DNA from: Octopus sinensis
Taxonomy: Eukaryota
Length of the DNA stretch: 64,000 nucleotides
Direction of reading: 5' to 3'
Assembly (NCBI RefSeq): GCF_006345805.1
Contig: NC_042997.1
Coordinates: 122,822,001-122,886,000, forward strand
Positions 21,231 through 21,591 of the stretch are shown piece after piece. How positions within the stretch are numbered: the stretch's first letter is position 1; every line of letters starts with the position of its first letter. Position numbers and translations under genes: made by a program. The notes under the pieces are model-generated. The model saw nothing but the letters and a program-made list of their open reading frames with translations, ran no database searches and had not been told where the DNA came from.

Positions 21231-21260
21231 GGCCTTGTAAGGAGTCTATATATATATATA

Positions 21261-21591
21261 TGGATCAAAGTTTGGACAATGTTGTTGGTACACTTTGTCT
21301 CTCTCTGTCCCTCTATCTGTATATATATGTATATATATATACATATATATATATATATATATATATATTATATATATATATATATTATATATATATATAT
21401 ATATATATATATATATATATATATATATATATATATACATATATATATATATATTATATATAATATATATATTATATATATATATATATATATATATATA
21501 TATATATATGTATATATATATACATATATATACAGATAGAGGGACAGAGAGAGACAAAGTGTACCAACAACATTGTCCAAACTTTGATCCA
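21261..21591. repeat. Perfect inverted duplication centred on a (TA)n array
   Basis: ~60-bp unique arms 21261-21320 and 21532-21591 are exact reverse complements. Confidence 0.95.

What the first reader, a model, noticed from the sequence alone, without database searches (positions are those of the whole stretch)
21247..21591. Recurrent fold-back duplications at (TA)n arrays: candidate cruciform or template-switch process
Seen: ~60 bp of unique downstream flank, plus the adjacent interrupted TA pattern, is copied exactly and inverted into the TA array, with TA on both sides of the copy. Related structures occur at 13771, 15273 and 29509, giving at least four in 16 kb. Known: (TA)n is self-complementary and extrudes hairpins/cruciforms. 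Inference: snap-back synthesis primed in TA runs, perhaps aided by PLE nicking or RT, generates palindromes at high rate and hence dsRNA if transcribed.
Basis: partly seen in the sequence, partly recalled or inferred. Interest (0 to 1): 0.7.

Follow-up and report, generated by a model that had tools for sequence, protein, structure and literature searches.

The report
Fold-back scars at TA repeats
A 60-base piece of neighbouring DNA sits copied backwards inside a TA repeat; it is likely the scar of a DNA end that folded back on the self-complementary repeat and copied itself, a known and uncommon repair or replication slip, while one of the four sites first grouped with it is likely an ordinary Penelope-type transposon insertion instead.

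Summary
All four structures are in the assembly, but they are two different things. Three (21261, 15273, 13771) are TA-centred inverted copies of the flank. The main one is exact (108-nt arms, 61 non-TA) and far younger than the old LINE and Tc1/mariner-like remnants around it. The fourth (29509) has a non-TA loop and is a truncated copy of a young, hammerhead-like, Penelope-type family; 13 of 25 copies examined fold back likewise. TA-centred copies are uncommon: 3 of 963 TA arrays in 139 evenly spaced stretches (shuffles 0.08-0.18), 3 of 186 beside the window. 'High rate' is therefore not supported, and specificity for TA over other microsatellites is only suggestive (p 0.05-0.31). The class looks real: arms at 15273 and two other loci differ by substitutions. 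Depth from independent short-read contigs fits a record across the main outer junction, but only indirectly. Best reading: snap-back synthesis primed in TA at a break or stalled fork, then rejoining in TA, as in known fold-back templated insertions. No excess at a Penelope-like end was seen; dsRNA is untested. The scan noted similar fold-backs before on other DNA.

The parts
20756..21246 (-). Old LINE-like fragment, 5'-truncated exactly at a TA dinucleotide; left neighbour of the structure
   Evidence: Paralogues at 78-81% identity run on past this point (14 of 14); paralogue frame hits Pfam RVT_1 at E 6e-5, below the curated cut-off; no continuation in the window or the two adjacent stretches
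21247..21260 (.). Outer (TA)7; inferred remainder of the original array
   Evidence: Sequence
21261..21319 (-). Inverted copy of the right flank (59 nt between the two TA runs; 61 non-TA nt as counted); 1-nt overlap with the outer TA
   Evidence: it is the copy because the other arm runs on into the dispersed repeat
21320..21532 (.). Central interrupted TA array, 213 nt; outer ~47 nt on each side mirrored, centre not
   Evidence: only 1 of 963 sampled arrays reaches 200 nt
21533..21591 (+). Original arm: GA-rich tract plus the first ~33 nt of the dispersed repeat
21559..23075 (.). Decayed ~1.5-kb dispersed repeat, Tc1/mariner-like by motifs recalled from memory (no transposase Pfam hit)
   Evidence: Paralogues 68-75% alike; frames; Pfam
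13771..13840 (.). TA-centred palindrome, 9-nt perfect arms around (TA)26, no outer TA
15162..15296 (.). Truncated copy of a high-copy TA-flanked repeat family (family B) that supplies the left arm of the 15273 structure
   Evidence: 1387 candidates, best 95% alike; paralogues
15273..15398 (.). Older TA-centred inverted copy, 23-nt arms with 3 differences around (TA)40, TA outside the right arm
   Evidence: all 9 paralogues agree; the left arm has 2 private changes and the right arm 1, none shared
29453..29589 (.). Different kind: truncated copy (102 nt) of a young Penelope-type non-autonomous family with its 35-nt inverted copy, between two TA arrays
   Evidence: 739 candidates, 40 of 40 scored 100% identical; 13 of 25 copies fold back; hammerhead-like motif in 12 of 25 longer copies

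Best explanation
The main structure is an exact, local, inverted copy of about 60 bases of flank lying inside a TA array, likely made when a free 3' end in the self-complementary TA run (at a break or a stalled fork) folded back, primed on itself, copied through the rest of the array into the flank, let go and rejoined the other TA end. Shown: geometry, local origin, which arm is the copy, mirrored TA interruptions, youth relative to the flanking repeats, recurrence elsewhere in the assembly. Inferred: the fold-back step, and host polymerases as its agent. Break repair and replication template switching give the same product and cannot be told apart here. It is likely a neutral scar. The 29509 site is likely a Penelope-type insertion with its usual inverted truncated copy.
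For: Geometry L-(TA)-rc(R)-(TA)-R with mirrored interruptions is what fold-back in TA predicts. 0 of 60 differences, against ~20% among paralogues of the neighbouring LINE (P 1.5e-6 if equally old; upper 95% bound 4.9%), so it is local and late. The same geometry with TA at the far end of the copy recurs at L126 (17 nt), L171 (55), L183 (41), L187 (26), L205 (12) and L241, with 0-4 nt overlap read from those sequences. Perfect arms of 10 nt or more: 3 of 963 TA arrays, mirror control 0, shuffles 0.08. L193 and L196 arms share private changes, so they are local copies. Substitutions between arms at 15273, L171 and L241 argue for age. depth: cover at 21228-21283 in X2, X4 and X5; for X5 the only single-record solution is 21234-21282, across the outer junction. 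Literature: fold-back insertions of 5 to over 150 bp with 0-5 bp microhomology at yeast breaks (PMC11724301, abstract and one results section); snap-back SD-MMEJ (PMC2943611, passages); TA repeats break and are repaired with templated short duplications (PMC13645644, PMC12972899, passages).
Against: Counts are small. With gapped scoring, the 3 of 963 is not clearly above controls (mirror 2; shuffles 0.75, max 3). TA against non-self-complementary arrays: 3 of 963 vs 1 of 1414, p 0.31; p 0.050 with the neighbouring stretches pooled. Longer arrays are not significantly favoured (p 0.088). Most arms are identical or differ only by indels, as artefacts would. No listed contig piece showed the junction (table 8 was cut); X1 had no cover at 21228-21255; one of the runs may be the assembly's own source. 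13771 lacks outer TA and has only 9 nt.
Confidence: 0.65

Rival explanations
1. Penelope-type enzymes make them: the GIY-YIG endonuclease nicks its preferred TA target and the freed host end folds back and is extended, by the element's reverse transcriptase or a host polymerase, with or without an insertion.
For: Penelope-like elements prefer (TA)n and make inverted ends (PMC8557442, passages). A young TA-targeting family is abundant here. 3 of 9 arms are shared repeat termini against 6.3% (p 0.015), two of them ends of Penelope-like families by my reading, and the 15273 copy starts at its element's truncation point. LINE-1 breaks give TA/AT-primed inverted duplications (10.1101/2024.12.14.628481, passages).
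Against: The main site, L171, L183 and 13771 have no shared repeat end, and the main copy postdates its neighbours. Head-to-head copies across short pure TA were no commoner at a Penelope-like end (3 against 2979 ends) than at a SINE-like end (10 pure-TA cases against 5541 ends; the script used 11, p 0.40); this comparison is rough, with arm lengths and denominators not matched.
Confidence: 0.15
2. The main copy, and other identical-arm cases, are assembly or sequencing artefacts: a read or local reassembly turning round in the self-complementary TA run.
For: Arms are identical; most census hits have 0 substitutions; one arm at L240 shows many indels; the junction was not seen directly, and X1's only record there begins at 21261.
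Against: An artefact would not readily stop after 60 nt and re-enter TA. Depth in three runs of three studies covers the junction bins, with a unique spanning solution in X5. 15273's right arm keeps family bases that the left arm has lost, so that site cannot be a fresh copy.
Confidence: 0.12
3. Chance, or independent head-to-head insertions of the same repeat into one TA array.
For: Such diverged pairs exist (L200, L202, L203) and raise the gapped shuffle baseline. It remains possible for 15273 (both arms are family sequence) and for the 9-nt arms at 13771.
Against: The main arm includes a locus-specific GA tract and TA interruptions and is 100% alike where paralogues are 69-83% alike.
Confidence: 0.05

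Closest known systems
Local fold-back inverted insertions at double-strand breaks (Yu et al., PMC11724301)
   Same: Short (5 to over 150 bp) inverted copy of the sequence beside one end, primed by a hairpin and joined to the other end with 0-5 bp microhomology
   Different: There the break is induced in yeast and the primer is a 10-bp imperfect inverted repeat; here the primer would be the TA array itself, and the product is seen only in an assembly
Snap-back synthesis-dependent MMEJ (Yu and McVey, PMC2943611); polymerase-theta repair at TA repeats (PMC13645644)
   Same: Hairpin-primed templated insertion giving an inverted repeat, sometimes in several rounds (as at L126); TA repeats as break sites
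   Different: No polymerase or pathway was tested here; the passages seen on TA repeats describe short duplications, not this inverted geometry
Short-range template switching, four-point model (Loytynoja and Goldman, PMC5453318)
   Same: Creates new inverted repeats by copying a short stretch in reverse; fits 13771 and the short arms at SINE-like ends
   Different: Needs an ancestral allele to place the switch points, which was not available; the words microsatellite and dinucleotide do not occur in that paper's main text
Penelope-like element insertion units with inverted 5'-truncated copy and tail (Craig et al., PMC8557442)
   Same: 29509: TA target, variable turn point, fixed return point leaving a one-sided ~56-nt tail, hammerhead-like motif
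   Different: The tail is longer than the 30-40 bp described; no coding partner was found; the motif has a G-C swap in the core and no Rfam hit; does not apply to the TA-centred sites

Membership tests
Fold-back templated insertion (main site) | Insert is an inverted copy of sequence next to the junction | tested here: met
Fold-back templated insertion (main site) | An inverted repeat able to prime the hairpin lies between copy and template | tested here: met
   TA array with mirrored outer interruptions
Fold-back templated insertion (main site) | Little or no microhomology (0-5 nt) at the far junction | tested here: met
   1 nt at 21261; 0-4 nt at other loci, read; not distinguishable from chance in AT-rich DNA
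Fold-back templated insertion (main site) | Ancestral allele without the copy | tested here: inconclusive
   X1 shows the arm but no junction cover, with about 76% of the run read; no relatives are held for this genome
Fold-back templated insertion (main site) | Dependence on a break and on a given polymerase or end-joining pathway | not testable with these tools
   Needs genetics
Penelope-like insertion unit (29509) | Inverted truncated copy adjacent to the element, with one-sided tail | tested here: met
   13 of 25 copies by exact 20-mer test, 12 of 13 returning to nt 57-70; two more by BLAST
Penelope-like insertion unit (29509) | (TA)n target preference | tested here: met
   17 of 25 copies have TA directly upstream
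Penelope-like insertion unit (29509) | Hammerhead motif | tested here: inconclusive
   Own descriptor (core recalled from memory) finds a variant motif in 12 of 25 copies and 0 of 500 shuffles; Rfam finds no hammerhead; the window copy ends before the motif
Penelope-like insertion unit (29509) | Link to an RT plus GIY-YIG coding element | tested here: inconclusive
   None of 53 hits in the fetched DNA lay near a hit of the window's putative endonuclease fragment, itself without a relevant Pfam hit; no genome-wide search for a partner was made
Penelope-like insertion unit (main site 21261) | Arms are element sequence | tested here: not met
   Arms are a GA tract and the end of an old DNA-transposon-like repeat

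The most novel reading that the evidence does not exclude
Penelope-type endonucleases that target TA also leave insertion-free scars: they nick TA arrays, the host end snaps back, and thousands of small palindromes accumulate, clustered in hot regions such as the 260 kb around this window, giving a heritable map of TA breakage in a TA-rich animal genome.
Probability: 0.12. Interest if true: 0.65.

Novelty: new member of a known kind. Interest (0 to 1): 0.3.

Why it matters
If real, these are natural examples of a product so far shown mainly at induced breaks, and they tie it to TA repeats, which are known fragile sites. A census in a TA-rich genome (extrapolated 1,200-17,000 loci) could measure how often TA breaks are healed by snap-back and whether hot regions exist. 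No function is implied, and the rate per array is low. My searches listed no paper on a census of TA-centred inverted flank copies, but they were five term searches of an open-access library, and supplements (e.g. junction tables of PMC13645644) were not seen.

Tried and rejected
No RNA holder listed, so the dsRNA and editing idea is open. One search was swamped by repeats in the left flank, its table of pieces was cut, and no run had cover at 21201-21227; direct display of the outer junction therefore remains open. Rfam gave nothing at gathering scores in the window and only microsatellite-driven, sub-threshold hits on six family loci. A first hammerhead descriptor missed the motif through a lazy match and was rewritten; it finds nothing in families B, C and D. 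Pfam gave no transposase or GIY-YIG hit. Patterns had the wrong TA phase and were replaced. Ungapped anchoring cut short arms with an indel, fixed. Rejected: co-insertional origin with the LINE or the DNA-transposon-like repeat (arms too young); all four sites as one process; a genome-wide high rate. Four 6-nt arms were set aside as selected by the pattern and possibly chance. L206 was picked and kept out of the unselected census. The SINE label for one repeat family is recalled from memory, not tested.

Full report
Observation. The window lies on contig C1 of a 2.7-Gb repeat-rich genome, which earlier notes of this scan call octopus. The main structure is as described: arms 21261-21368 and 21484-21591, 108 nt, 100% complementary, 61 nt non-TA. 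The order is LINE fragment, (TA)7, inverted copy, 213-nt interrupted TA array, original arm. Two pairs of interruptions are mirrored about the axis; the six inner ones are not. With DNA parameters the whole folds at -140.9 kcal/mol, against -63.8 for the TA array alone. The three other sites exist, but 29509 has an 11-nt non-TA loop and 13771 has no outer TA.

Which arm is the copy, and how old. The right arm runs on into a decayed ~1.5-kb dispersed repeat with paralogues 68-83% alike, Tc1/mariner-like by recalled motifs only. The left neighbour is a LINE-like fragment whose 14 examined paralogues continue past the TA at 21247; a paralogue frame hits RVT_1 weakly, and orientation makes this a 5' truncation. 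So the left arm is the copy, made locally. With 0 of 60 differences it is much younger than the neighbouring repeats (P 1.5e-6 at 20% divergence) and did not arise with their insertion, unless the arms were later homogenised, which I could not test.

Is it real. Contigs of four runs were laid on 20500-21321. Repeats swamped the tables and no listed piece showed the junction. The depth table has cover at 21228-21283 in X2, X4 and X5 (three studies, three organism labels). In X5 cover stops before 21284, and the only single-record solution is 21234-21282, spanning LINE, TA and copy at about single-copy depth. X4 has several solutions; X1 has only a record starting at 21261, with about 76% of the run read. 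This is indirect, assumes one record, and one run may be the assembly's source. For the class, 15273 is firmer: nine paralogues agree, the left arm has two private changes and the right arm one, so the right arm is not a fresh copy of the left. L171 (1 mismatch, 1 gap in 55 nt) and L241 (2 mismatches in 68 nt) also have diverged arms.

How common. In 139 evenly spaced 10-kb stretches, 3 of 963 TA arrays have perfect anchored inverted arms of 10 nt or more (mirror control 0; shuffled pairings 0.08). Under gapped scoring the same 3 stand against mirror 2 and shuffles 0.75 (max 3), because unrelated copies of common repeats match. Five non-self-complementary classes gave 1 of 1414; Fisher p 0.31, or 0.050 with the neighbouring stretches pooled. 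The 200 kb beside the window gave 3 of 186, all 25 nt or longer with TA at the far end (p 0.057 against the even sample). The window has 3 of 58 but was chosen for them. The estimate is 2.2 per Mb (0.45-6.3), or 1,200-17,000 loci. Using a common SINE-like end as reporter, 21 head-to-head matches across short gaps were found. Of 15 examined, some are short exact local copies, two sharing private changes; some are diverged pairs; four are 6-nt arms that may be chance. L206 has 246-nt arms with 0 mismatches and 1 gap, and L126 shows repeated rounds.

The fourth site. 29453-29554 is a young high-copy repeat (739 candidates, 40 of 40 scored identical). Of 25 copies, 17 start at TA and 13 fold back at variable points, 12 of them returning to nt 57-70, as the window copy does. 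Longer copies carry a type-I hammerhead-like motif with a swapped core pair in 12 of 25 (0 of 500 shuffles), not detected by Rfam. This matches the inverted truncated copy, tail and TA preference described for Penelope-like elements (PMC8557442, passages); no coding partner was found. More generally, 8 of 39 short-loop hairpins in 120 stretches have TA at an outer end, against 0.5% per end, many with multicopy arms. Earlier unchecked notes describe the same kind in this genome.

Mechanism. For the TA-centred sites, a 3' end in TA can pair with itself at any register, so fold-back, short synthesis into the flank, release and rejoining to the remaining TA gives exactly the order seen, including the mirrored interruptions and the lengthened array. 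This is inference. Short fold-back insertions with 0-5 bp microhomology are documented at yeast breaks (PMC11724301, abstract and section 15), snap-back repair in flies (PMC2943611, passages), and reverse copying in replication (PMC5453318, passages). TA repeats are cut by structure-selective nucleases and repaired by MMEJ with templated duplications (PMC12972899, PMC13645644, passages). LINE-1 breaks can give TA/AT-primed inverted duplications (10.1101/2024.12.14.628481, passages). The retrozyme preprint (10.64898/2026.07.22.740005, two passages) added nothing. For an element role, 3 of 9 arms are shared repeat ends (p 0.015). Against it, the main site has none, and a rough comparison found 3 cases against 2979 Penelope-like ends and 10 against 5541 SINE-like ends.

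Verdict. Interest 0.3; new member of a known kind.

Noticed in passing
L095:1-1084 (G000:C1:100000001 onward): Perfect palindrome with arms of at least 542 nt and no spacer, cut by the edge of the stretch; unexplained
   Followed up: no
L126:6545-7127: Three adjacent exact fold-backs: a whole SINE-like copy inverted (172 nt counted), a 17-nt stub between TA runs, and a 25-nt hairpin with outer TA
   Followed up: partly
   Followed up: partly
G000:C1:122722001-122986000 (L171-L190 and window): TA-centred copies look denser around the window (3 of 186 beside it) than in the even sample (3 of 963); p 0.057
   Followed up: partly
window 28799-29389: Diverged inverted pair (61 nt with 6 mismatches; 33 nt with 5) next to TA arrays
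   Followed up: no
window 59752-60232 and 60310-60557: Two diverged inverted duplications of AT-rich DNA, 6-16% mismatched, beside TA runs
   Followed up: no
window 15440-15608, 27694-27734, 44486-44531: Small non-TA-centred inverted repeats: 57 nt with 10 mismatches; perfect 16 nt with a 9-nt loop; a three-arm 12-13 nt set
   Followed up: no
window 39668-40832: Inverted pairs of SINE-like repeats, 80-90% alike
   Followed up: no
window 1422-1937 (-): 171-aa open frame resembling a Penelope-type endonuclease end by recalled motifs; 12 tblastn hits in the fetched DNA but no relevant Pfam hit
   Followed up: partly
L238 (G000:C2:28743661): Inverted duplication with at least 191 identical nt around a 14-nt AT-rich spacer
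   Followed up: no
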